Shown here in pieces: positions 45,220 to 52,879 of a stretch of 64,000 bases of DNA. A model generated the notes under the pieces. It searched no databases, was not told the origin of the DNA, and was given only the letters and a program-made list of their open reading frames with translations. Source of the DNA: a virus (Duplodnaviria > Caudoviricetes). The stretch covers positions 1 to 64,000 of IMG/VR virus record IMGVR_UViG_3300035663_000005. One strand, 5' to 3'. Within the stretch, counting starts at the first letter, position 1, and every line of letters starts with the position of its first letter. Both the position numbers and the translations under genes were made by a program.

Positions 45220-45291
45220 AGCCATCTGTGGGATTCGAACCCACGACCTCCAGATTACAAATCAGGTGCACTACCACTGTGCTAAGATGGC
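45220..45291 (-). tRNA. tRNA-Thr(TGT)
   Basis: Cloverleaf; anticodon loop TTTGTAA. Confidence 0.9.
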
Positions 45292-45296
45292 GAAAG

Positions 45297-45369
45297 TAGT
45301 CCCTATAGGATTCGAACCTACAACTTCTTCCGTGTAAAGGAAGCACTCTAGCCGTTGAGTTAAGGGACT
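45297..45369 (-). tRNA. tRNA-Val(TAC)
   Basis: CTTCC-TTTACAC-GGAAG. Confidence 0.9.
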
Positions 45370-45374
45370 ATTAG

Positions 45375-45456
45375 TGTCGGTGGAGGGAGTCGAACCCACA
45401 CGCCTTGCGGCAAAAGAACCTAAATCTTTCGTGTATGCCAATTTCACCACACCGAC
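45375..45456 (-). tRNA. tRNA-Leu(TAG)
   Basis: AAAGA-TTTAGGT-TCTTT, long variable arm. Confidence 0.9.
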
Positions 45457-45462
45457 TATTTC

Positions 45463-45996
45463 TTACTTCTTGACTTTGGTTTTCTTTTCCTTCTTTGCCA
45501 AAGACTTCTTAACCTTGGCAACCATTTCCTTCAGTTCAGGAGGAGAGAATGCGTTTGTCTTCAGTAGATCGTTTCTTCGCTTCTCTTCTTCCTTCTCTGC
45601 CTTCATTTCTCTGGCCTTTTCCCCACTATCAAGTTGCTTGCAGTATTCAACGAGAGCAGCCTGACATTCTGCTTCGTTAACAAAAGGCCCGTGAAACTGT
45701 GCCCATGTTTCATCCCAAAAAATCCAACCTGAATGCTTGGGAGAATACTCTACAGGATCGTGACGACCGATAGCAATGTATCCCTTCTCACTTGCCTTGG
45801 GCTTACTCCACTCGCACATTACCTTTTCGGTATTCTTGACCCACAGTTCAACATCAAAATCAAACGGGTAGTGCTTTAGCAAATCACGAGCCTGCTTGCG
45901 AATTGCATCCTTGCCCATCTTGGTGTTGCCCATAAGTTCCTTCAGAAATTCTGAAGTCTTAACAACTGCCCAATAAGATTCATATGGTAGCGTCAT
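45463..45996 (-). CDS. Hypothetical protein
   Basis: MTLPYE...A..LLKHYP phage motif; W.FWDETW module. Confidence 0.7.
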   Translation of the reverse strand: MTLPYESYWAVVKTSEFLKELMGNTKMGKDAIRKQARDLLKHYPFDFDVELWVKNTEKVMCEWSKPKASEKGYIAIGRHDPVEYSPKHSGWIFWDETWAQFHGPFVNEAECQAALVEYCKQLDSGEKAREMKAEKEEEKRRNDLLKTNAFSPPELKEMVAKVKKSLAKKEKKTKVKK

Positions 45997-46177
45997 GGTA
46001 TAGTTTCTCCTTCCTACGAGACTGTCGCTCGTAGGCTTTAAATAATCCTTCACTAAATCCGGCATGCTTGCCGTGACCGTATCCTTGAGAATACGCCCAA
46101 GTATATAACTTGATTTGTGAGGCTGCGAATGCGGAAATTGCCGAAACGATGAAAAAGATTGTTGCTATTGTTTCCAT
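45980..46177 (-). CDS. Small membrane protein
   Basis: METIATIFFIVSAISAFAA TM, then GY..G...GF..G. Confidence 0.6.
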   Translation of the reverse strand: METIATIFFIVSAISAFAASQIKLYTWAYSQGYGHGKHAGFSEGLFKAYERQSRRKEKLYHDATI

Positions 46178-46213
46178 ATCATTAGTTATAGTATAACACA
46201 ATCTGAACAAAAG

Positions 46214-46299
46214 TGCGAGAGGTGGGATTCGAACCCACACGCCTTTAGAGGGCAGCGGATTTTGAATCCGCCGTGTATGCCAATTCCAGCCACTCTCGC
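46214..46299 (-). tRNA. tRNA-Leu(CAA)
   Basis: GCGGA-TTCAAAA-TCCGC, long variable arm. Confidence 0.9.
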
Positions 46300-46305
46300 A
46301 AACAG

Positions 46306-46378
46306 TAGGACTGATGGGATTCGAACCCATACTTTGCGGATTTTAAATCCGCTGACTCTGCCGTTGGTCTACAGTCCC
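46306..46378 (-). tRNA. tRNA-Leu(TAA), short variable loop
   Basis: GCGGA-TTTAAAA-TCCGC. Confidence 0.85.
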
Positions 46379-46387
46379 GTCAAGTAT

Positions 46388-46415
46388 AGTATACTGTCTA
46401 CTCCAACAAAGTCAA
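46388..46415 (-). promoter_or_regulatory. Sigma70-like promoter for tRNA-Leu genes
   Basis: TTGACT-N16-TATACT. Confidence 0.65.
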
Positions 46416-46434
46416 GCACAAAATAATTTTAAAA

Positions 46435-46506
46435 CTGGCTCGGCTGGATTCGAACCAGCAACCTATCCGTTAACAGCGGATCGCACTACCGTTGTGCTAC
46501 GAGCCA
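46435..46506 (-). tRNA. tRNA-Asn(GTT)
   Basis: ATCCG-CTGTTAA-CGGAT. Confidence 0.9.
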
Positions 46507-46511
46507 ACTTT

Positions 46512-46676
46512 TTAAATTTGCTTTTCTCGCTTAATCCAAAGTGGAAGAATACCACGCTCTTCAAGTTTACGAAGAGTTTCCTTCTTTGCATTAAGTAGCA
46601 GTTCCTGTCGCTTCAAGCGACGAGATTCATAACGACGCTTACGACGACGACGAAGTTCTCTCATTTTGTCTATCAT
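46512..46676 (-). CDS. Small Arg-rich protein (54 aa, not in ORF track)
   Basis: Manual translation MIDKMRELRRRRKRRYESRRLKRQELLLNAKKETLRKLEERGILPLWIKREKQI; fills the gap. Confidence 0.6.
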   Translation of the reverse strand: MIDKMRELRRRRKRRYESRRLKRQELLLNAKKETLRKLEERGILPLWIKREKQI

Positions 46677-47274
46677 TATCTAAACCTTTCTTCTTCATAA
46701 GATGCTTCACCCAAATTTCAGTTACAGTCATTGGATGATGGAATTCCTCAAACTTGAAACCACTAATTGGCTCCTTGTTCTTGGTCTTGAGTGCAGTATA
46801 GATGCCGTTGAGTCGGTTAGGCTTGAACTCACCAACAGGTTCTTCCTTACCTAGACCAGGCCATGCTTCTGCCTTGGTTCCGATTACCAATCCTTGTGGA
46901 GATGCAGGCGACTTAAAGAATATGGCATCCTGCTCATACTTTGCGCCCATCTTCTTGGCAAAGCCTTTGATGGCTCCGCTCTTTGTTGGAGTGGCATCAT
47001 CTCCGATAATCATAAAAGACTCTTCAGTAACACGACGCTTCTTGCCGTCACCAAGGTCTTCTTCGTAAGTGCCAACAACTTTCTCAAAACCAAAACCTGC
47101 TGCACGAATATCATTCTCCAACTTCTTGTTGAGTCCACGATTCACCGACAGCGAATTGCTGCCACGAAACGCGGTAAGCAAAGCAAACGGTCGCTTCTCA
47201 ACATGTGAGAACACGCGAGCAAGTGAGATTTCTGTAATCAATTCTTTTCGATAGGTTTCAATTTGTTCAGACAC
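46639..47274 (-). CDS. Conserved phage hypothetical protein
   Basis: SL.RV, LTAFR, G.GF....G.Y.E, E.SF, KYEQDAI. Confidence 0.75.
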   Translation of the reverse strand: MSEQIETYRKELITEISLARVFSHVEKRPFALLTAFRGSNSLSVNRGLNKKLENDIRAAGFGFEKVVGTYEEDLGDGKKRRVTEESFMIIGDDATPTKSGAIKGFAKKMGAKYEQDAIFFKSPASPQGLVIGTKAEAWPGLGKEEPVGEFKPNRLNGIYTALKTKNKEPISGFKFEEFHHPMTVTEIWVKHLMKKKGLDNDRQNERTSSSS

Positions 47275-47452
47275 TTGTGGCTCCCCTGATTTCTTCTGTA
47301 GATTGTTTTAGTGACAAGTAAACTTTTCGTATCTCTTCAAACGCTTGCGATGCGGTGAACTTGCCTTCCAATTCCCACTCAACAATACGAGCAGTTTTGC
47401 GGGCTAGTTCTCCAATGTTCGCATGTGCTGCGAAGTCTTCAATCTCCATCAT
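47267..47452 (-). CDS. Hypothetical protein
   Basis: 61-aa ORF with GGAG RBS. Confidence 0.6.
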   Translation of the reverse strand: MMEIEDFAAHANIGELARKTARIVEWELEGKFTASQAFEEIRKVYLSLKQSTEEIRGATSV

Positions 47453-47526
47453 TTTTCTCCGAATGCGACTTGCTGTAACCGCTCCAACAAGTCTGGTAAA
47501 GTTAAGGTATAGTGTTTAGTATACCG

Positions 47527-47661
47527 TCACTTTCCCTTCGGTGCAATTTTTTTATTTGCTTTCCGCTTTTTCTTAAAAATTGCGTCCCAATTCTTTGACC
47601 ATAAAGCGTAATCCACCTTACGGTATCTATCTCCCTTGCCTGCTGCATGCTTGCCGCTCAT
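47527..47661 (-). CDS. Small basic protein (44 aa, not in ORF track)
   Basis: MSGKHAAGKGDRYRKVD....KNWDAIFKK; AGGAG RBS. Confidence 0.6.
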   Translation of the reverse strand: MSGKHAAGKGDRYRKVDYALWSKNWDAIFKKKRKANKKIAPKGK

Positions 47662-47766
47662 ATCGTCTCCTGGTGGCTTGAGAAGGTGATTTGGTGAACA
47701 GGTAGACCGCAGTTTCCTGCATCGCCAATAGCATCAATTATAAAAACCTTCAGTTCGCCTAAATCT

Positions 47767-48003
47767 TTAAAATTGTGCAAGGCGGTCAAGTGCTTCGTTT
47801 GCAGTTCCCCACCGCTTACGCCATGCCTTCCAACGAGTGAATGCGTTACGAAGACTTGGCGTAGGAGGATTCTCCATTGCTTCAAACAATCGCTTCGCGT
47901 CTTCAGGAGACATGGCATTCAATCTCCACTCCATCTCAGCAGAATTCATCTGATTGAGTGGAAGATTCAAAAATTCTTTAACACGGTCAAAAGGTTCAGT
48001 CAT
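47767..48003 (-). CDS. Hypothetical protein
   Basis: Start MTEPF with GGAG RBS. Confidence 0.55.
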   Translation of the reverse strand: MTEPFDRVKEFLNLPLNQMNSAEMEWRLNAMSPEDAKRLFEAMENPPTPSLRNAFTRWKAWRKRWGTANEALDRLAQF

Positions 48004-48019
48004 TTTATATACTCCAAAG

Positions 48020-48094
48020 TCGGGGTGATAGGATTTGAACCTACGACCTCCTGCTCCCAAAGCAGGCGCACTAGCCAAACTGTGCTACACCCCG
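48020..48094 (-). tRNA. tRNA-Pro(TGG)
   Basis: CCTGC-TTTGGGA-GCAGG. Confidence 0.9.
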
Positions 48095-48098
48095 AGAA

Positions 48099-48170
48099 AG
48101 CGGGTAGAGGGATTCGAACCCTCGGCCTTTGGTTTGGAAAACCAATACTCTACCGCTGAGTTATACCCGC
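48099..48170 (-). tRNA. tRNA-Gly(TCC)
   Basis: TTGGT-TTTCCAA-ACCAA. Confidence 0.9.
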
Positions 48171-48191
48171 AAAAAGTCCGAGCCATTATAG

Positions 48192-49250
48192 TTAGGTGAA
48201 AATGGTATTGAGTTGACGGTTAACTCGGACAAATGTTGTGCATTTTGGCAAGTCCTTCAGGCGAGCAGCACCCACATAAGTGCAAGCCGAACGAACTCCA
48301 CCAAGAATTTGTTGCATCACGCCATCCACAGGACCAACAGGCTTCACATGAACCCGCTTACCTTCTGCGGCACGATATTGTGCAACCCCTCCTGAATACT
48401 TTTCCATTGCAGTAGCGGAACTCATGCCGTAGAACTCCTTGCCGTCTTCGGTTTCCTCACCTGCGGCTTCATCAGTTCCTGCAAACATGCCACCAATCAT
48501 AACAAAGTCTGCGCCTGCACCGAATGCCTTGGCTACATCACCGGGGCAGGTGCACCCACCGTCCGAAAGCACATAGCCACCTAGTCCGTGTGCGGCATCA
48601 GCACACTCCATGATGCACGACAGTTGCGGGTAGCCAACACCTGCAACCTTTCGTGTGGTGCAAACCGAGCCAGGCCCAATTCCAATCTTGACAATGTTCG
48701 CACCTGCAAGAATCAAGGCTTCAGTCATTTCTCGTGTCACCACATTACCTGCAATCAGAATATGATTAGGAAAAGCCTCACGAATAGTTTGCACATACCG
48801 CACAAACTTTTCAGTATAGCCGTTAGCCACATCCACACAGATAAACTTGATGGACTTGTGGCGATTCAGAATTCGTTCAGCCTTTTGGATTTCTTCCATG
48901 CTGGAATTCATATCACCCATACCGATAGTATACACCACATTGGTAGACCAATTCAAATGACTACTTGCCCAATTATTCATAAACTTATCCCATTCTGCTT
49001 CCGTGTAATACTTGTGAATACCACACAGCGCAGCGTACTCGCTAAGACTATCAGCCATTTCAAATGTACCAACAGTATCCATGTTGGCTGCAACAATTGG
49101 CACACCAGTCCAAGTTTCTTCATTTTTATTTGGAAGTTTAAATACAAATGTGCGAGACACATCAACCTTGCTACGACTATCAAGATTGCTGCGCTTTGGG
49201 CGAATCAGCACATCAGCGAAATCCAACTTTACATCGTCTTCAATCTTCAT
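48192..49250 (-). CDS. guaC: GMP reductase
   Basis: [43 protein letters not shown]. Confidence 0.95.
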
Positions 49251-49274
49251 GTTGTAAACTCCTAAACTATTTAG

Positions 49275-49378
49275 ACGGGGATGCGGGAATCGAACCCGCC
49301 ACTAATGAATTATCCGGAATATTTTCATCAGCGATTCTACCGATGGTTGTTACTCCTTCAACCAAAGAACTCTCCCCA
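49275..49378 (-). ncRNA. tRNA-like ncRNA with elongated arms
   Basis: Perfect T arm GCGGG-TTCGATT-CCCGC, acceptor TGGGGA/TCCCCG, two long hairpins instead of D and anticodon arms. Confidence 0.6.
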
Positions 49379-49386
49379 TAAAAGAA

Positions 49387-49540
49387 AGGCGGTAGACCTG
49401 ATGCTCTCTAGTGGCCATCTAGAAGAAACATCCAACTACGCCTCTTTGTTTGCCACCGCACACTATTCTTCCTGCCGTTAGTGGGCAGGTAGGTGGGTGA
49501 GAGCAACCAAAGTTTTTGATGGGGTTAACAATCCCACCAA
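49387..49540 (-). ncRNA. Putative structured ncRNA (three hairpins)
   Basis: Stems at 49387-49443, 49444-49512 and 49516-49540; no credible ORF. Confidence 0.45.
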
Positions 49541-49549
49541 GGTTTTAAG

Positions 49550-49621
49550 TGACCCCAACGGGACTCGAACCCGTGTCAGAAGAGTGAAAGTCTTCGATCC
49601 TTGCCGCTAGACGATGGGGCC
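49550..49621 (-). tRNA. tRNA-Glu(TTC)
   Basis: GAAGA-CTTTCAC-TCTTC. Confidence 0.9.
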
Positions 49622-49633
49622 TAGAACAACTAT

Positions 49634-49661
49634 AGTATACTCAAGAGTTGAACTGTGTCAA
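49634..49661 (-). promoter_or_regulatory. Sigma70-like promoter for tRNA-Glu/ncRNA unit
   Basis: TTGACA-N16-TATACT. Confidence 0.7.
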
Positions 49662-50699
49662 GTATTCCGAACCAACTTCTGAAGAAATTTTTTCTGAAAT
49701 AGGATTTAAAATTGCTTCATAATCTTTATCAAACATAAGTTTGGCAAGTCTTTCGATATCATACTCCGTTTTCCAACCCAAAACTCGCTTTGCTTTTTCT
49801 GGATTACCCAAAAGAAAAGGAACTTCATTTGGTCGTAATAGCCTAGGATCAATTTCAACATATTTGTTATAGTCTCCCAAACCGGCGTATTCAAAAACAA
49901 TACTTAAAAACTCTCTAACTGTGTGTGTTTGTTGGGTTGCTATAACATAATCATCTGCAACATTTTGTTGTAGCATTAACCACATAGCCTTTACATAATC
50001 TCCAGCAAATCCCCAATCTCTTAAAGCGTCAAGATTTCCTAAAAACAATTTATCTTGTAATCCTGCTTTAATTTTTGCGGCTGCTATTGTTATTTTTCTA
50101 GTAACAAAAGTTTCTCCTCTTCTAGGACTTTCGTGATTGAAAAGTATTCCAGAAGAAGCGTGAAGACCGTAAGCATTTCTATAAATTCTTACACTATGAT
50201 GAGCATACAACTTTGCGGCAGCATAAGGAGAAACTGGAGTCATTTTACTGTTTTCAGTAAATCCATTTGAACCATAATCTTTGCTGTCGCCAAACATTTC
50301 CGAAGAAGATGCTTGATAAAATTTAGTTTGGGGACTAACTAGACGAATGCCATCCATTATTCTAATTGTTCCCATAGCAATACCATCGGAAGTGTATTGT
50401 GCTAGATCGAAAGAAACACCAACATGGGATTGAGCAGCAAGATTATAGAACTCATCAGGCTGATACTCTTGCAAAAGTCTCACCACAGATGTTCCATCCA
50501 TTAAATCATAGTAATGCATCTTGAAATTTTTACTTAAATCTTTATTGTTTATGATATGATCTAGTCTAGGTGTATTGATGGTTGAGGTTCTTCTTTTAAG
50601 ACCAACAACAAAATAACCCTTTTCAAGAAGTAAGTCTGCAAGATAAGAACCATCTTGACCAGAAACACCAGTTATTATGGCAACCTTTTGCTTTCTCAT
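49641..50699 (-). CDS. gmd: GDP-mannose 4,6-dehydratase
   Basis: ITGVSGQDGSYL, YNLAAQSHV, QASSSE, FNHESPRRGETFVTRKI. Confidence 0.95.
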   Translation of the reverse strand: MRKQKVAIITGVSGQDGSYLADLLLEKGYFVVGLKRRTSTINTPRLDHIINNKDLSKNFKMHYYDLMDGTSVVRLLQEYQPDEFYNLAAQSHVGVSFDLAQYTSDGIAMGTIRIMDGIRLVSPQTKFYQASSSEMFGDSKDYGSNGFTENSKMTPVSPYAAAKLYAHHSVRIYRNAYGLHASSGILFNHESPRRGETFVTRKITIAAAKIKAGLQDKLFLGNLDALRDWGFAGDYVKAMWLMLQQNVADDYVIATQQTHTVREFLSIVFEYAGLGDYNKYVEIDPRLLRPNEVPFLLGNPEKAKRVLGWKTEYDIERLAKLMFDKDYEAILNPISEKISSEVGSEYLTQFNS

Positions 50700-50724
50700 T
50701 ATATTAAATCCTCACATTAAAAAG

Positions 50725-51087
50725 TTATTGCAAACGAAGCAGATATTTTGTTTGGTTTAAAACTCCAATCATTTCGTCACGAATATTTAAAAGGTCGGTA
50801 TCGTTTGTCGCATCCAACTTTTGTGGCATTTCGTGTGAAAGATAGTAGATGGCGTTGTTAATCACGCCCAAAGAGTTTGAGTCCTTATAGTTGTTAACAT
50901 TGAAACTAAAACTTGGATTGCCTAAAGTGTTGCCGTATTTGCCTGTGTGGACTTCCATAAACTGGTCAATCAATCCATCAAGCCCTTCATAAGCCTTTCC
51001 TAAAGCCTTATGCTCGGCATAAGACTTGGTTTGCCAGTGAAGCACTCGCAATTGAGATTGAAGTTGTAGGAAGAAGGTTACGCACAT
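50725..51087 (-). CDS. Ferritin/Dps-like protein
   Basis: LHWQT.SYAEHKAL...Y......D.F.E, LLNIRDE....N...YL. Confidence 0.75.
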   Translation of the reverse strand: MCVTFFLQLQSQLRVLHWQTKSYAEHKALGKAYEGLDGLIDQFMEVHTGKYGNTLGNPSFSFNVNNYKDSNSLGVINNAIYYLSHEMPQKLDATNDTDLLNIRDEMIGVLNQTKYLLRLQ

Positions 51088-51105
51088 AGTCTAGTATATA
51101 TTAAA

Positions 51106-51180
51106 AGGTCGGAGTGAGATTTGAACTCACGAAATCACGGATTTGCAATCCGTTCCCTTAAGCCACTTGGGTATCCGACC
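51106..51180 (-). tRNA. tRNA-Cys(GCA)
   Basis: ACGGA-TTGCAAA-TCCGT, U73. Confidence 0.9.
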
Positions 51181-51184
51181 AAAG

Positions 51185-51269
51185 CGGACAGAGAAGGATT
51201 CGAACCCTCGGAGGCATTCACCTCGGCGGTTTAGTAAACCGCTGCATTAGACCACTCTGCCATCTGTCC
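51185..51269 (-). tRNA. tRNA-Ser(ACT)
   Basis: GCGGT-TTACTAA-ACCGC, long variable arm, G73. Confidence 0.85.
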
Positions 51270-51272
51270 TAG

Positions 51273-51353
51273 TGCGTCGTGTAGGACTCGAACCTACGAA
51301 GTCAAAGACAACAGATTTACAGTCTGTCCCAGTTGCCGCTTTGGTAACGACGC
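51273..51353 (-). tRNA. tRNA-Tyr(GTA)
   Basis: ACAGA-CTGTAAA-TCTGT. Confidence 0.9.
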
Positions 51354-51357
51354 TTAA

Positions 51358-51445
51358 CGGGCAGAGAGGGATTCGAACCCCCGGTAGATTGTTCACCTAC
51401 TGTTGTTTTCAAGACAACCGCGTTAGACCACTCCGCCATCTGCCC
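51358..51445 (-). tRNA. tRNA-Ser(TGA)
   Basis: GTTGT-CTTGAAA-ACAAC, long variable arm. Confidence 0.9.
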
Positions 51446-51451
51446 CATATT

Positions 51452-51658
51452 TCACTCAGAAAGAAATCGCTTGCTTTCGCTGATTCCTTGCTTGGCTCGT
51501 TCAATGATATTTCGTTCCGCTTCCGCATATCCCTGTCGATACTCAGCCCAATACGGTTGAGTTGCAGCATATGCAACAGAACGATCTGCTAGTCCTGCCA
51601 TTCTATCTTGATAGCCGTCCTTATAGCCTTGTCCTGGAATGTATTCGTGTGTGTTCAT
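51452..51658 (-). CDS. Hypothetical protein
   Basis: GY.DGY.D...Y..GY motif; AGGAG RBS. Confidence 0.65.
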   Translation of the reverse strand: MNTHEYIPGQGYKDGYQDRMAGLADRSVAYAATQPYWAEYRQGYAEAERNIIERAKQGISESKRFLSE

Positions 51659-51675
51659 ACTGCGGTCTCCTGTAG

Positions 51676-51748
51676 TGGATCGAAGAGGACTCGAACCTCC
51701 AACCCATGCCTTGCAAAGGCATTGTTCTCCCAATTGAACTATCGACCC
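51676..51748 (-). tRNA. tRNA-Ala(TGC)
   Basis: ATGCC-TTTGCAA-GGCAT; G3-U70. Confidence 0.9.
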
Positions 51749-51961
51749 TTATTCATCTCTCATAAATTCTATGCCGTCAACTTTAGTGAATGATGAGGCA
51801 TAATCGCCTGCTCGCTTCCACAGATCTTTATCCATCTCTTTCACATATTCGGCAAACTTCAATCCAAACAACATGATAGCCTGATGATATCGCTTCACCG
51901 TTTCTGGATCACGAATCTCATTGCCGTCATCATCTGTTGGATAGAAGTTCCACTTTTCCAT
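51749..51961 (-). CDS. Hypothetical protein
   Basis: GGAG RBS; lies between tRNAs. Confidence 0.65.
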   Translation of the reverse strand: MEKWNFYPTDDDGNEIRDPETVKRYHQAIMLFGLKFAEYVKEMDKDLWKRAGDYASSFTKVDGIEFMRDE

Positions 51962-51976
51962 ATCTGTCTCCAAAAA

Positions 51977-52047
51977 TTGCCCGACCTAGATTCGAACTAG
52001 GACACAGAGGACCAAAATCTCTGGTGCTACCGTTACACCATCGGGCA
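51977..52047 (-). tRNA. tRNA-Gln(TTG)
   Basis: Loop TTTTGGT; U1-A72. Confidence 0.88.
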
Positions 52048-52072
52048 AGTGCATCCTTGCACTACTCCTCTA

Positions 52073-52285
52073 TCAGCAAGCGGGAGTGTTGCCGCCAAAA
52101 AGACCCATCACCACATTGATGACAGCGACCACGGCGTTCTTCAGCCACAAGGCTCCGTTCCAAGCGAACGGAAGCAGGGCGAGAGTAACGAGCATGCTAC
52201 GATTGACCCCAACCTTGGAAAGAAGGCAGTTCAACTTGTCGCAGCCACCAGTAACAGGGCATGAGCCCGATTCAAACTTAGCCAT
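52073..52285 (-). CDS. Small membrane protein
   Basis: AAGGAG RBS; hydrophobic C-terminal half; Cys-rich N-terminus. Confidence 0.65.
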   Translation of the reverse strand: MAKFESGSCPVTGGCDKLNCLLSKVGVNRSMLVTLALLPFAWNGALWLKNAVVAVINVVMGLFGGNTPAC

Positions 52286-52331
52286 TTTTTTCTCCTTATG
52301 TAAAAGTTAATTGGGGATGGCAATCCCCTTA

Positions 52332-52688
52332 TCAGTTACGCTTCTTACTCTTACGAGAACTCTTGGTCTTAGCCTTGGGTTCCGTGTAATCGTCAAGATC
52401 GTAAACCTGATTTTCATAGACCTTATCAGTAAGGTCTTCAATCATACGCGAAAGTGTGTCAATGTTATCGTTGAACTCTCGTCGCACATCGTTAATCTGC
52501 GAATCAATTTCATTACGAAGACTAGAAATTTCCAAATCAATTCTCTTGTTCGTTTCTTCGTGAACACCGTTAATAGTTCTCTGATTCTCATCGTCACGCT
52601 TCTTTGAGTTAGCAACCAAAGTGTTGATGGCAGAGAATGCGTTAGCCGCGAGTGAGAGACCAAGCAATCCGTAAAGATAAGTATCCAT
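52332..52688 (-). CDS. Membrane-anchored coiled-coil protein
   Basis: N-terminal TM, heptad-like region; AAGGAG RBS. Confidence 0.7.
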   Translation of the reverse strand: MDTYLYGLLGLSLAANAFSAINTLVANSKKRDDENQRTINGVHEETNKRIDLEISSLRNEIDSQINDVRREFNDNIDTLSRMIEDLTDKVYENQVYDLDDYTEPKAKTKSSRKSKKRN

Positions 52689-52726
52689 AATGTATTCTCC
52701 TTTCAAGAGAAGGTGAGTTTATTTAG

Positions 52727-52799
52727 TGCCCCCGACAGGACTCGAACCTGTAACCTACCGATTAAAAGTCGGCTACTCTACCAATTGAGTTACGGAGGC
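52727..52799 (-). tRNA. tRNA-Lys(TTT)
   Basis: GCCGA-CTTTTAA-TCGGT. Confidence 0.9.
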
Positions 52800-52804
52800 G
52801 GAAG

Positions 52805-52879
52805 CGTTCCTGATAGGATTCGAACCTATGACCTGATGCTTAGAAGGCATCTGCACTATCCAGGCTGTGCTACAGGAAC
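52805..52879 (-). tRNA. tRNA-Arg(TCT)
   Basis: GATGC-CTTCTAA-GCATC. Confidence 0.9.

What the first reader, a model, noticed from the sequence alone, without database searches (positions are those of the whole stretch)
49275..49378. 104-nt cloverleaf RNA with tRNA acceptor/T arm but no anticodon loop
Seen on the minus strand: acceptor TGGGGA/TCCCCG; hairpin TTCT..TGGTTG-(9 nt)-CAACCA..AGAA; hairpin CGCTGATGAA-(14 nt)-TTCATTAGTG; perfect T arm. Known: T4 tRNA clusters include stable RNAs of unknown function, and tRNA mimics exist (Y RNA, tmRNA). Inference: a processed tRNA mimic, possibly a decoy for anticodon nucleases or a non-ribosomal aminoacyl carrier.
Basis: partly seen in the sequence, partly recalled or inferred. 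Interest (0 to 1): 0.72.

Follow-up and report, generated by a model that had tools for sequence, protein, structure and literature searches.

The report
Non-decoding tRNA mimic in phage tRNA array
A lake phage related to T4 carries, among its tRNA genes, a 104-base RNA gene that keeps the top half of a tRNA but cannot read codons, much like the still unexplained "RNA C" of phage T4.

Summary
Window 49275-49378 (minus strand) folds into the cloverleaf described: an acceptor stem, a canonical T arm, and two long hairpins in place of the D and anticodon arms. ARAGORN and Rfam tRNAs in the window but not this element. It is the only T arm outside a called tRNA in the 86.7-kb record.

The host is an uncultured T4-like lake phage (gp43 about 50% identical to cyanomyophages). 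The element is the last part of a cassette: sigma70-type promoter, tRNA-Glu, a 170-nt covarying RNA, then the mimic.

I found homologues on only three other viral contigs. Outside the hairpin-2 apical loop they match at 90/90 and 86/90 positions, like the real tRNAs (97%/94%). Third codon positions next door are 73%/67% identical, and so is the loop (10/14, 9/14). No pair changes on both sides.

The architecture matches T4 RNA C (species 1 RNA). That family's covariance model does not recognise the element (12.4 bits, E 0.69).

My reading: a selected, tRNA-derived, non-decoding RNA processed like a tRNA, and a new variant of the RNA C kind. Its function is unknown. An anticodon-nuclease decoy is unlikely, because the only anticodon-like loop is 14 nt long and hypervariable.

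The parts
49275..49378 (-). The 104-nt tRNA-shaped element (acceptor, D-like arm, hairpin 2, T arm, discriminator U)
   Evidence: Sequence. Cloverleaf minimum-energy fold with z -2.57. Homologues at 96% and 92% identity. CM R1 scores 128-130 bits on 4 copies.
49372..49378 (-). Acceptor 5' strand (element positions 1-7, UGGGGAG). Position 1 is C in L003/L004.
   Evidence: The 1-103 pair is U.G in 2 sequences and C-G in 1. Position 7/97 is a G.A mismatch.
49335..49369 (-). D-like arm (positions 10-44). The UUCU/AGAA stem encloses a 6-bp hairpin (15-35) with an invariant 9-nt loop AAGGAGUAA. UCGGU (36-40) carries a GG where a tRNA has G18 G19.
   Evidence: Helices 2 and 3 are 100% paired, with one U-A to U.G change at 18-32. 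The G18/G19 register is my reading against the standard tRNA layout.
49300..49333 (-). Hairpin 2 (positions 46-79): a 10-bp stem in the anticodon-arm position that abuts the T arm with no variable region
   Evidence: Of its pairs, 8 never vary, one changes G.U to G-C, and one changes A-U to A.C in L003.
49310..49323 (-). Hypervariable 14-nt apical loop of hairpin 2 (positions 56-69)
   Evidence: There are 4 of 14 (L009) and 5 of 14 (L003) changes, against 0 of 90 and 4 of 90 elsewhere. Fisher p = 2e-4 and 2e-3.
49283..49299 (-). Canonical T arm GCGGG-UUCGAUU-CCCGC
   Evidence: 17.0 bits to the tmRNA T arm, E 6.3e-5. (the only T arm outside a called tRNA).
49275..49282 (-). Acceptor 3' strand AUCCCCG (49276-49282) and discriminator U (49275)
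   Evidence: It is followed by C-UAAAUA, the same trailer as tRNA-Lys.
49379..49548 (-). 170-nt structured RNA between tRNA-Glu and the element (three domains)
   Evidence: z -3.90, with 0 of 200 shuffles folding as well. 9 pairs change on both sides against 3.5 +/- 1.4 in shuffles, 0 of 500 reaching that. Alignment.
49549..49621 (-). tRNA-Glu(UUC), first gene of the cassette
   Evidence: 56.2 bits.
49634..49661 (-). Sigma70-type promoter-like site TTGACA-16-TATACT, 5' of tRNA-Glu
   Evidence: 11 of 12 matches. L009 and L003 have TTGACA-16-TATAAT at the same place despite a different upstream gene.
49268..49274 (-). CTAAATA directly 3' of the element, 18 nt before the GMP reductase start: a candidate late-type promoter
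   Evidence: 9 of 9 copies in the window are on the minus strand. Conserved in all 3 relatives.
48192..49250 (-). Downstream gene, GMP reductase (context, not part of the RNA)
   Evidence: NF003470, 523 bits, cut-off 397.

Best explanation
This is a real, selectively maintained small RNA gene derived from a tRNA that no longer decodes. It belongs to an uncultured T4-like lake phage.

It is the last module of a compact cassette: sigma70-type promoter, tRNA-Glu, a 170-nt structured RNA, then the mimic. It keeps exactly the parts of a tRNA that the maturation machinery reads: a 7-position acceptor stem, a canonical T arm, a D-loop GG for the elbow, and the N73-C-U trailer.

I therefore infer the following steps. 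It is transcribed with tRNA-Glu. RNase P cuts its 5' end, which at the same time creates the 3' end of the upstream 170-nt RNA. Its 3' end is then trimmed and given CCA, like the phage's 18 tRNAs, none of which encodes CCA.

The decoding half is replaced by two constrained helices. One is a D-position arm whose loop shows a Shine-Dalgarno-like AAGGAG. The other is a 10-bp helix stacked against the T arm. The mature L-shaped RNA would therefore act through its body, as a tRNA look-alike that binds a tRNA-handling or ribosomal partner.

In layout and genomic setting it is the counterpart of T4 RNA C (species 1 RNA).

Shown here: sequence, fold, position, conservation pattern, promoter-like sites, and presence in RNA-library contigs. 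Inferred: processing, stability, and partner.
For: Structure and tRNA likeness.

It is not a decoding tRNA. ARAGORN finds 18 tRNAs, none here, and Rfam finds none here. It is the only T arm outside a called tRNA in the 86.7-kb record.

Selection:
- Outside the hairpin-2 loop, 90/90 (L009) and 86/90 (L003) positions are identical.
- The real tRNAs are 829/853 and 1028/1094 identical.
- GMP reductase third codon positions are 73% and 67% identical. Binomial p = 4e-13 and 3e-11.
- The adjacent spacer is only 136/168 and 90/134 identical.
- tRNA-Glu of L009 is only 55/73 identical. The conservation is therefore local and not a recent transfer of the whole block.
- 3 of 4 stem substitutions keep pairing.

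Cassette: the promoter, tRNA-Glu, spacer and element stay together while the gmd gene sits on different sides of them in the window and in L003/L009.

RNA libraries: a 153-nt contig at 100% identity in RNA run X16 spans 49302-49454, with 77 and 76 letters on either side of the element's 5' end.

T4 parallel:
- rnaC lies in the tRNA array and follows another small RNA, rnaD.
- It has a 7-position acceptor with mismatches, a long arm in the D position preceded by GG, a 10-bp hairpin 1 nt from a canonical T arm, and no anticodon arm.
- 22 of its 44 pairs show compensatory change in 7 sequences.
- My scan for T arms outside called tRNAs recovers rnaC in T4 and in 5 of the 6 relatives.

The phage is T4-like.
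Against: - No covariation: 0 of 31 pairs change on both sides, and there are only 3 distinct sequences.
- Narrow distribution. The element is on the window's record plus 3 viral contigs. None was found in 47 other related loci, in 3 large related records, in the 5 metagenome matches, or in 185,579 species genomes.
- The rnaC covariance model scores the element at 12.4 bits, E 0.69, below two ordinary tRNAs of the window.
- The reverse hit of my model on T4 rnaC (20.8 bits) is no better than its hits on ordinary tRNAs in other phages (22.8 and 22.5 bits). Homology with rnaC is therefore not shown.
- The RNA contig that spans the 5' end could be an unprocessed precursor or carried-over DNA. Contigs cannot show RNA ends.
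- One stem substitution (A-U to A.C) breaks a pair.
- No partner or function is identified. The part of the phage sequenced (39%) shows no CCA enzyme, RegB or Rnl1.
Confidence: 0.62

Rival explanations
1. It is only a processing handle. The functional product is the upstream 170-nt RNA. The tRNA-like module exists to recruit RNase P and so define that RNA's 3' end, as tRNA-like signals do for other transcripts. The excised mimic is then a by-product.
For: The upstream RNA is strongly structured and covaries. It is flanked by tRNA-Glu on one side and the mimic on the other, with no gap. The cassette travels as a unit. The mimic keeps the acceptor and T-arm features that RNase P reads.
Against: By established knowledge, RNase P needs only the acceptor/T-arm half. 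Yet hairpin 1 (0 of 21 and 1 of 21 changes) and the hairpin-2 stem (0 of 20 and 2 of 20 changes) are as constrained as the T arm, while the neutral proxy predicts about 30% change. An ordinary tRNA could do the same job.
Confidence: 0.15
2. It is a dead tRNA gene that picked up two palindromic insertions and is decaying.
For: No decoding loop. Narrow distribution. No compensatory pair changes. One broken pair in L003. The hairpin-2 loop evolves at a neutral-like rate.
Against: Outside that loop, identity is 90/90 and 86/90, where third codon positions next door are 73% and 67% identical (p about 1e-11 to 1e-13). The flanking spacer and the L009 tRNA-Glu are much more diverged. There are no indels among the 3 sequences.
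Confidence: 0.1
3. It is a decoy for anticodon nucleases or a non-ribosomal aminoacyl carrier.
For: It looks like a tRNA and sits in a phage tRNA array. From the listings and abstracts (for example PMC11464382), phage tRNAs are known to counter tRNA-cutting defences.
Against: By established knowledge, anticodon nucleases read a specific 7-nt anticodon loop. Here the loop is 14 nt on a 10-bp stem and is the least conserved part. There is no G3.U70 pair, no encoded CCA and no known identity set. No tRNA-repair or charging gene lies nearby on the sequenced 39% (weak evidence).
Confidence: 0.07
4. It is a DNA-level or leader element for the downstream gene. One version is an internal promoter, TTGAAG-16-TAGAAT at 49361..49334. 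Another is a 5'-UTR regulator of GMP reductase.
For: A 9-of-12 promoter-like match lies inside the element. The element ends 24 nt before the GMP reductase start codon.
Against: In L003 and L009 the gene after the element is gmd, not GMP reductase, so it is not tied to one gene. A 9-of-12 match is weak: the region has 7 such sites against 2.5 +/- 1.6 in shuffles. A promoter does not explain the paired acceptor strands and the canonical T arm. The downstream gene has its own CTAAATA motif.
Confidence: 0.04
5. It is a decoding tRNA with an intron or expanded loops, for example tRNA-Phe(GAA) with a 22-nt intron.
For: With the intron option and thresholds lowered to 80%, ARAGORN draws a tRNA-Phe(GAA) with a 22-nt intron over 49274-49378. 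Relatives do carry a group I intron in a tRNA. The array lacks a tRNA-Phe.
Against: ARAGORN does not call it at default thresholds, even with the intron option. The proposed intron sits at position 28-29, inside the anticodon stem. The proposed 3' strand of that stem (positions 58-62) lies in the hypervariable loop and loses 1 pair (L009) or 2 pairs (L003). There is no group I intron match in 49150-49650.
Confidence: 0.02

Closest known systems
Phage T4 RNA C (species 1 RNA, rnaC; AF158101 70908-71046) and its homologues in Tevenvirinae
   Same: - It lies inside the tRNA array of a T4-type phage on the tRNA strand, where tRNA finders do not call it.
- It has a 7-position acceptor stem with mismatches, followed directly by a canonical 5-bp/7-nt T arm on the 3' side.
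- It has no anticodon arm. A 10-bp hairpin touches the T arm instead (1 nt apart in T4, 0 nt here).
- A long irregular hairpin stands in the D position, with a GG just before the 3' strand of its closing stem.
- In T4 another non-tRNA small RNA (rnaD) precedes it, as the 170-nt RNA does here.
- Its function is unknown according to passages in PMC3014915, PMC9697503 and PMC12685909.
   Different: - There is no detectable sequence relationship. The rnaC covariance model gives 12.4 bits, E 0.69, below two real tRNAs.
- rnaC is 139 nt against 104 nt here.
- Its hairpin-2 loop is 6 nt and nearly invariant (GCGUCAAC context), where this one is 14 nt and hypervariable.
- It has a 9-nt linker before hairpin 2, against 1 nt here.
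- It has no Shine-Dalgarno-like loop.
- T4 rnaD is not notably structured (z -0.83), whereas the RNA upstream here is (z -3.9).
Canonical tRNA (Rfam RF00005), including the phage's own 18 tRNAs
   Same: The acceptor stem, T arm, D-stem-like helix with GG, N73-C-U trailer without encoded CCA, U-rich leader, strand and array position all match.
   Different: The D loop carries a 21-nt hairpin. The anticodon stem is 10 bp with a 14-nt loop. The variable region is 0 nt. Neither ARAGORN nor Rfam detects it.
tRNA-like domain of tmRNA (RF00023, and permuted RF04321, which more distant relatives of this phage encode)
   Same: The T arm is the only part of the element that any Rfam model recognises, and the best match is to tmRNA. 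Relatives L022 and L023 carry permuted tmRNA genes.
   Different: The score is 17 bits against a gathering score of 47. Pair 3-70 is G-C, not the G.U that I recall as the alanine identity mark. There is no tag reading frame or pseudoknots, and both acceptor strands lie within 104 nt.
tRNA-like 3'-end processing signals (the mascRNA type) and bacterial Y RNA (YrlA) tRNA-like modules
   Same: Recalled, not tested: these are non-decoding tRNA look-alikes handled by RNase P or tRNA-modifying enzymes.
   Different: No Rfam match to mascRNA covers the element (the 15.1-bit hit lies on tRNA-Glu), and none to YrlA is listed. As I recall, YrlA has its ends on the anticodon side. Here the ends form the acceptor stem.

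Membership tests
Canonical tRNA (RF00005) | 7-bp acceptor stem directly joined to a 5-bp T stem with a 7-nt UUCRANY loop | tested here: met
   6 pairs plus a G.A mismatch, and the T arm GCGGG-UUCGAUU-CCCGC.
Canonical tRNA (RF00005) | 5-bp anticodon stem with a 7-nt loop | tested here: not met
   a 10-bp stem and a 14-nt loop that varies among relatives.
Canonical tRNA (RF00005) | D arm with a loop of about 7-11 nt, and a variable region of at least 4 nt | tested here: not met
   a 27-nt 'loop' containing a 6-bp hairpin, and 0 nt between hairpin 2 and the T stem.
Canonical tRNA (RF00005) | Detected by tRNA finders at their normal thresholds | tested here: not met
   Only ARAGORN at 80% thresholds with the intron option draws a contrived tRNA-Phe.
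T4 RNA C (species 1 RNA) family | Lies in the tRNA array of a T4-type phage, on the tRNA strand | tested here: met
T4 RNA C (species 1 RNA) family | Layout: acceptor-like stem, long arm in the D position, 10-bp hairpin abutting a canonical T arm, no anticodon arm | tested here: met
   (consensus of 7 sequences, 22 of 44 pairs compensatory) compared.
T4 RNA C (species 1 RNA) family | Sequence-plus-structure similarity to the family (covariance model) | tested here: not met
   12.4 bits, E 0.69, ranked fifth of 9 hits, below two real tRNAs of the window. The reverse hit of 20.8 bits is no better than hits on ordinary tRNAs.
T4 RNA C (species 1 RNA) family | Accumulates as a discrete stable small RNA during infection | not testable with these tools
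   Only contigs from RNA libraries are available, and they cannot show ends or levels.
tmRNA (RF00023 / RF04321) | Covariance-model score at or above the gathering score, plus a tag reading frame and pseudoknots | tested here: not met
   17.0 and 13.3 bits against 47, T arm only; no match over the cut-off in the record. ARAGORN finds no tmRNA.
Intron-containing tRNA (group I) | Group I intron between tRNA halves | tested here: not met
   no Intron_gpI match in 49150-49650. For comparison, L023 gives 64.3 bits.

The most novel reading that the evidence does not exclude
The promoter, tRNA-Glu, 170-nt RNA and tRNA-mimic cassette is the functional equivalent of T4's rnaD-rnaC pair. If so, pairs of a structured RNA and a non-decoding tRNA mimic are a recurrent module of T4-type phages, reinvented or diverged beyond recognition. 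The mimic would be an L-shaped RNA that shows a perfect Shine-Dalgarno-like AAGGAG in an exposed loop, and would dock on 30S subunits or another tRNA-binding host factor early in infection to redirect translation or blunt a tRNA-directed defence.
Probability: 0.12. Interest if true: 0.72.

Novelty: new variant of a known kind. Interest (0 to 1): 0.45.

Why it matters
T4's RNA C and RNA D have been known for about fifty years, yet reviews and transcriptome papers up to 2025 still list their function as unknown (passages in PMC3014915, PMC9697503 and PMC12685909).

This is a second tRNA mimic, unrelated in sequence but the same in layout, in a distant T4-type phage. It is kept as strictly as the phage's real tRNAs and sits next to a covarying companion RNA. 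That suggests the kind is selected for and is not a T-even oddity.

It also gives a comparative handle. The features the two share are the acceptor/T-arm/elbow half, a 10-bp helix against the T arm, and the absence of a variable region. Those are the features to test. The features that differ (loop sequences, size) are probably not essential.

On the practical side, tRNA finders miss such genes, so phage tRNA arrays may hold more of them. A scan for T arms outside called tRNAs recovered both this element and rnaC.

Tried and rejected
**Distant homologues**
- The phages collection matched only tRNA-Glu, in 1 record.
- blastn and CM R1 over 51 GMP-reductase loci gave only the 3 known contigs. 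The 21-bit 'hits' in L007, L008, L022, L023 and L024 are ordinary tRNA-Gly.
- Of 5 large related records, 2 matched, both already known.
- Seven exact-pattern scans of viral contigs gave the same 3 contigs plus chance matches. Those were L054, L058, the 18 further loci (0 of the 19 loci searched hit the model) and L109. One search was empty because I miscounted the Ns; one search corrected it.
- One metagenome scan gave 5 loci and 0 homologues. Two 86-nt hits of 21.1 bits (L083, L085) were not followed up.
- Two scans of species genomes gave 0 and 0. The 3' half is therefore not a copy of a host tRNA end.

**Parent tRNA**: none of the 71 distinct tRNAs in the loci stands out.

**tmRNA reading**: rejected.

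**Intron-tRNA reading**: rejected.

**Small ORFs in the element**: the 8-codon and 9-codon frames are not kept in L009 or L003 (read). The plus-strand ORFs across the region are broken by the 31-nt deletion in L003.

**Kissing pairing between the two loops**: kept in the window and in L009 (the latter through one wobble), broken in L003 (read).

**Same kind of element in cyanomyophages S-RSM4, S-PM2 and S-CAM3**: the R1 hits I checked (the two best, plus one more) are ordinary tRNAs, and the fetched array pieces hold no T arm outside a called tRNA.

**RegB, CCA-adding enzyme and Rnl1 on the record**: none found, but the record is 39% complete, and for two of the families nothing matched in the control genomes either.

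**Earlier notes of this scan**: none.

**Literature**
- Searches found no description of such an element outside T4.
- PMC150520 and PMC389853 are not held.
- PMC1524935 has none of the four terms I searched in it (stable RNA, species 1, small RNA, tRNA-like).
- Supplements were not consulted, so the Northern blot of RNA C cited in PMC9697503 (its Figure S7b) was not seen.

**RNA run X15**: its contig reaches only 22 letters into tRNA-Glu, so it is not counted as bridging.

**Parts of the array without RNA-contig cover**: no conclusion drawn.
Full report
**1. Observation**

In element numbering, position n is window 49379-n.
- Positions 1-6 pair with 98-103. Position 7/97 is a G.A mismatch, and U104 sits where a tRNA has its discriminator.
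- UUCU (10-13) pairs with AGAA (41-44). This stem encloses a 6-bp hairpin (15-35) whose 9-nt loop is AAGGAGUAA.
- A 10-bp stem (46-55 with 70-79) carries a 14-nt loop.
- GCGGG-UUCGAUU-CCCGC (80-96) is a textbook T arm.

RNAfold returns this cloverleaf as the minimum-energy fold: -34.7 kcal/mol, z -2.57, with 2 of 200 shuffles folding as well. ARAGORN tRNAs in the window and Rfam gives 18 tRNA matches at gathering thresholds. Neither covers the element. A permissive Rfam scan of 49150-49650 recognises only the 17-nt T arm, best as the T arm of tmRNA: 17.0 bits against a gathering score of 47. In the whole 86,727-base record this is the only T arm that lies outside a called tRNA.

**2. Context**

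The window is part of an IMG/VR virus record that CheckV estimates as 39% complete. The DNA runs that hold it are labelled lake or freshwater metagenomes.

Its DNA polymerase is about 50% identical to gp43 of Synechococcus myophages. The record also encodes a UvsX-like recombinase and a DnaB-like helicase. It is therefore a T4-type phage.

All 18 tRNAs lie on the minus strand, 17 of them between 45.2 and 52.9 kb. The element follows tRNA-Glu (49549-49621) and a 170-nt non-coding stretch. It ends 24 nt before the start codon of GMP reductase. GDP-mannose 4,6-dehydratase (gmd) lies upstream of tRNA-Glu.

None of the 18 tRNAs encodes CCA. Most read N73-C-U. The element reads U-C-UAAAUA, the same trailer as tRNA-Lys.

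**3. Relatives**

I found homologues on only three other viral contigs, which hold two distinct sequences. L009/L053 differ from the window at 4 of 104 positions and L003/L004 at 9 of 104.

No other search found a further copy:
- a covariance model built from the three distinct sequences (R1), run over 51 loci that encode related GMP reductases;
- the same model over 3 more large related records;
- seven exact-pattern scans of viral contigs;
- one metagenome scan;
- two scans of 185,579 species genomes.

An RNA-library contig (run X17) matches 49300-49382 with 6 differences and then continues unlike the window, so some further variants exist in nature.

In L003 and L009 the order is tRNA-Glu, spacer, element, gmd, GMP reductase. 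In the window, gmd lies upstream of tRNA-Glu. The element therefore travels with tRNA-Glu and the spacer, not with any one downstream gene.

A near-consensus sigma70-type promoter stands just 5' of tRNA-Glu in all three. It is TTGACA-16-TATACT in the window and TTGACA-16-TATAAT in L009 and L003, even though the upstream gene differs.

**4. Is it under selection?**

Identity to the window:

| Segment | vs L009 | vs L003 |
|---|---|---|
| Real tRNAs, pooled | 829/853 (97%) | 1028/1094 (94%) |
| Element outside the hairpin-2 loop | 90/90 | 86/90 |
| Hairpin-2 apical loop | 10/14 | 9/14 |
| GMP reductase, third codon positions | 73% | 67% |
| 170-nt spacer | 136/168 | 90/134, plus a 31-nt deletion |
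| tRNA-Glu | 55/73 | 73/73 |

Against the third-codon proxy, the conservation outside the loop has binomial p = 4e-13 (L009) and 3e-11 (L003). The neighbours are much less conserved, so this is a local constraint and not a recently shared block.

The hairpin-2 apical loop stands out in the opposite direction. Its identity is indistinguishable from the third-position proxy and significantly lower than the rest of the element (Fisher p = 2e-4 and 2e-3).

Of the four stem substitutions, three keep pairing: U.G to C-G at 1-103, U-A to U.G at 18-32, and G.U to G-C at 47-78. One breaks it: A-U to A.C at 51-74. No pair changes on both sides. There is therefore strong evidence of constraint but no covariation proof of the fold.

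**5. What it is not**

- **Not a decoding tRNA.** There is no 7-nt loop on a 5-bp stem and no variable region, and the only candidate loop is hypervariable. ARAGORN draws a tRNA-Phe(GAA) only with the intron option and thresholds lowered to 80%. That model places a 22-nt intron inside the anticodon stem. The 3' strand of that stem falls in the hypervariable loop and loses pairs in both relatives.
- **Not a tRNA split by a group I intron.** The region has no such match. More distant relatives of this phage do carry such an intron.
- **Not tmRNA.** The score is 17 bits, there is no G.U at the third pair and no tag frame, and both acceptor strands lie within 104 nt.
- **Not a copy of a host tRNA end.** The 25-nt 3' half has no exact match in the species genomes.
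- **Not coding.** The small frames on either strand are not kept in the relatives.

**6. What it most resembles**

Read in tRNA register, the element keeps what the maturation machinery and elbow-binding factors use:
- the acceptor/T-arm helix;
- the T loop UUCGAUU;
- a D-type stem;
- UCGGU with a GG where a tRNA has G18 G19.

The register assignment is my reading against the standard tRNA layout.

The closest described object is T4 RNA C (species 1 RNA, rnaC). I fetched it from the T4 record and collected six diverged homologues from other Tevenvirinae. In these phages it usually sits between tRNA genes, a few bases apart. I then folded the alignment. Of 44 predicted pairs, 22 show compensatory change. 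The consensus has:
- a 7-position acceptor with two mismatches;
- a 3-bp stem closing a long irregular hairpin, with GG just before the stem's 3' strand;
- a 10-bp hairpin;
- one nucleotide;
- a canonical T arm;
- the acceptor 3' strand.

That is the same layout as the element here, including the unusual 10-bp helix set directly against the T arm.

In T4, rnaC follows tRNA-Arg and another small RNA, rnaD. Here the mimic follows tRNA-Glu and a 170-nt RNA. A simple scan for T arms outside called tRNAs picks up T4 rnaC and five of its six relatives, just as it picks up this element.

**7. Membership**

Similar layout is not the same as family membership.
- A covariance model of the rnaC family (R2) scores the element at 12.4 bits, E 0.69. 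That is below two ordinary tRNAs of the window.
- My model R1 scores T4 rnaC at 20.8 bits, but it scores ordinary tRNAs of other phages at 22.8 and 22.5 bits.
- The nearly invariant hairpin-2 loop of rnaC has no counterpart here.

Homology is therefore not shown. The element may be a very diverged relative or an independent invention. Rfam has no family for rnaC.

Passages in three papers state that the roles of RNA C and RNA D are unknown: PMC3014915 (2010), PMC9697503 (2022, which classes them as late RNAs) and PMC12685909 (2025). I read only those passages. The older biochemical literature on species 1 RNA processing is not held here. What I say about RNase P acting on such RNAs rests on general knowledge of RNase P substrate recognition.

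**8. Mechanism I commit to**

1. Host RNA polymerase starts at the sigma70-type promoter and makes one precursor: tRNA-Glu, the 170-nt RNA, then the mimic. This is inferred from the promoter-like sites and the absence of terminator-like sites.
2. RNase P cuts at 49378/49379. This frees the mimic's 5' end and sets the 3' end of the 170-nt RNA.
3. The 3' trailer is trimmed after U73 and CCA is added, as must happen for all 18 tRNAs.
4. The product is a stable L-shaped RNA that cannot decode. It acts through its constrained body.

A 153-nt contig from RNA run X16 matches 49302-49454 at 100% and spans the proposed cut site, with 77 and 76 letters on either side. This fits a precursor, but contigs cannot show ends, and carried-over DNA is not excluded.

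The partner is unknown. The invariant AAGGAG in an exposed 9-nt loop invites a 30S-binding idea, but with three close sequences its invariance carries little weight.

The decoy-for-anticodon-nuclease idea fits poorly, because the anticodon-position loop is the wrong size and unconstrained.

The main rival is that the mimic is only a processing handle for the 170-nt RNA. Against it, both long arms are as constrained as the T arm.

**9. The companion RNA**

The 170 nt between tRNA-Glu and the mimic fold far better than shuffles: z -3.90, with 0 of 200 shuffles as good. Across three sequences, 9 pairs change on both sides, against 3.5 +/- 1.4 in column shuffles (0 of 500 reaching that) and 0-4 when partners are slid. 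It matches no Rfam family and occurs only in the same relatives. It has better comparative support for its fold than the mimic does.

**10. Verdict**

This is a real, constrained, tRNA-derived, non-decoding RNA gene in a T4-type phage. In layout and setting it is a new variant of the RNA C kind, with a narrow known distribution, no proven expression ends and no known function. I rate it moderately interesting. It turns a lone T4 curiosity into a recurring pattern and names the shared features worth testing.

Noticed in passing
window 49379-49548 (-): A 170-nt RNA between tRNA-Glu and the mimic. It is strongly structured (z -3.9). Across 3 sequences, 9 pairs change on both sides (0 of 500 shuffles reach this). 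It matches no Rfam family. L003 lacks one 31-nt hairpin.
   Followed up: yes
window 49634-49661 (-); L009 about 1565-1600; L003 about 1600-1635: A near-consensus sigma70-type promoter lies just 5' of tRNA-Glu: TTGACA-16-TATACT in the window and TTGACA-16-TATAAT in both relatives. It is kept although the upstream gene differs.
   Followed up: partly
window 4100, 5339, 6386, 9189, 9766, 40826, 49268, 52720, 55974 (all -): CTAAATA occurs 9 times, all on the coding strand. The overall count is no higher than chance (10.1 +/- 2.9). At least five of them lie 4-20 nt before an ORF start, and one directly follows the mimic and another tRNA-Lys. It is a candidate late-type promoter motif.
   Followed up: partly
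window 51184-51269 (-): A tRNA-Ser with anticodon ACU (Rfam 54 bits), an unusual A34 anticodon. It is also present in L003 and L009.
   Followed up: no
window 45220-52879 (-): None of the 18 tRNAs encodes CCA, and most are followed by C then U. Metabolic genes (GMP reductase, GDP-mannose 4,6-dehydratase) are interleaved with the tRNAs. gmd sits on opposite sides of the tRNA-Glu cassette in the window and in L003/L009.
   Followed up: partly
L022 1534-1851, L023 555-982; T arms at L008 1924-1940 and L024 1517-1533: More distant relatives (GMP reductase 78-85% identical) encode permuted two-piece tmRNA genes (Rfam RF04321, 79 and 71 bits). ARAGORN misses two further copies.
   Followed up: partly
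L023 4817-4997 and 5030-5046; L052 1275-1291; L053 7366-7382: A group I intron (64 bits in L023) interrupts a tRNA in some relatives. This includes the contig that carries the closest copy of the mimic. The flanking anticodon-arm sequence resembles the window's tRNA-Lys, which is uninterrupted.
   Followed up: partly
L013 5452-5525 (+): Another tRNA-like gene that ARAGORN does not call. It has a 7-bp acceptor, a T arm and a 7-nt loop CUUCUAA on a 5-bp stem, but no D arm and a 20-nt stretch before the T arm.
   Followed up: no
phage records under hits H51 and H21: Annotators label the T4 rnaC homologue inconsistently: unannotated in most records, 'tRNA-Lys' in one, and 'hypothetical protein' in several.
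   Followed up: no
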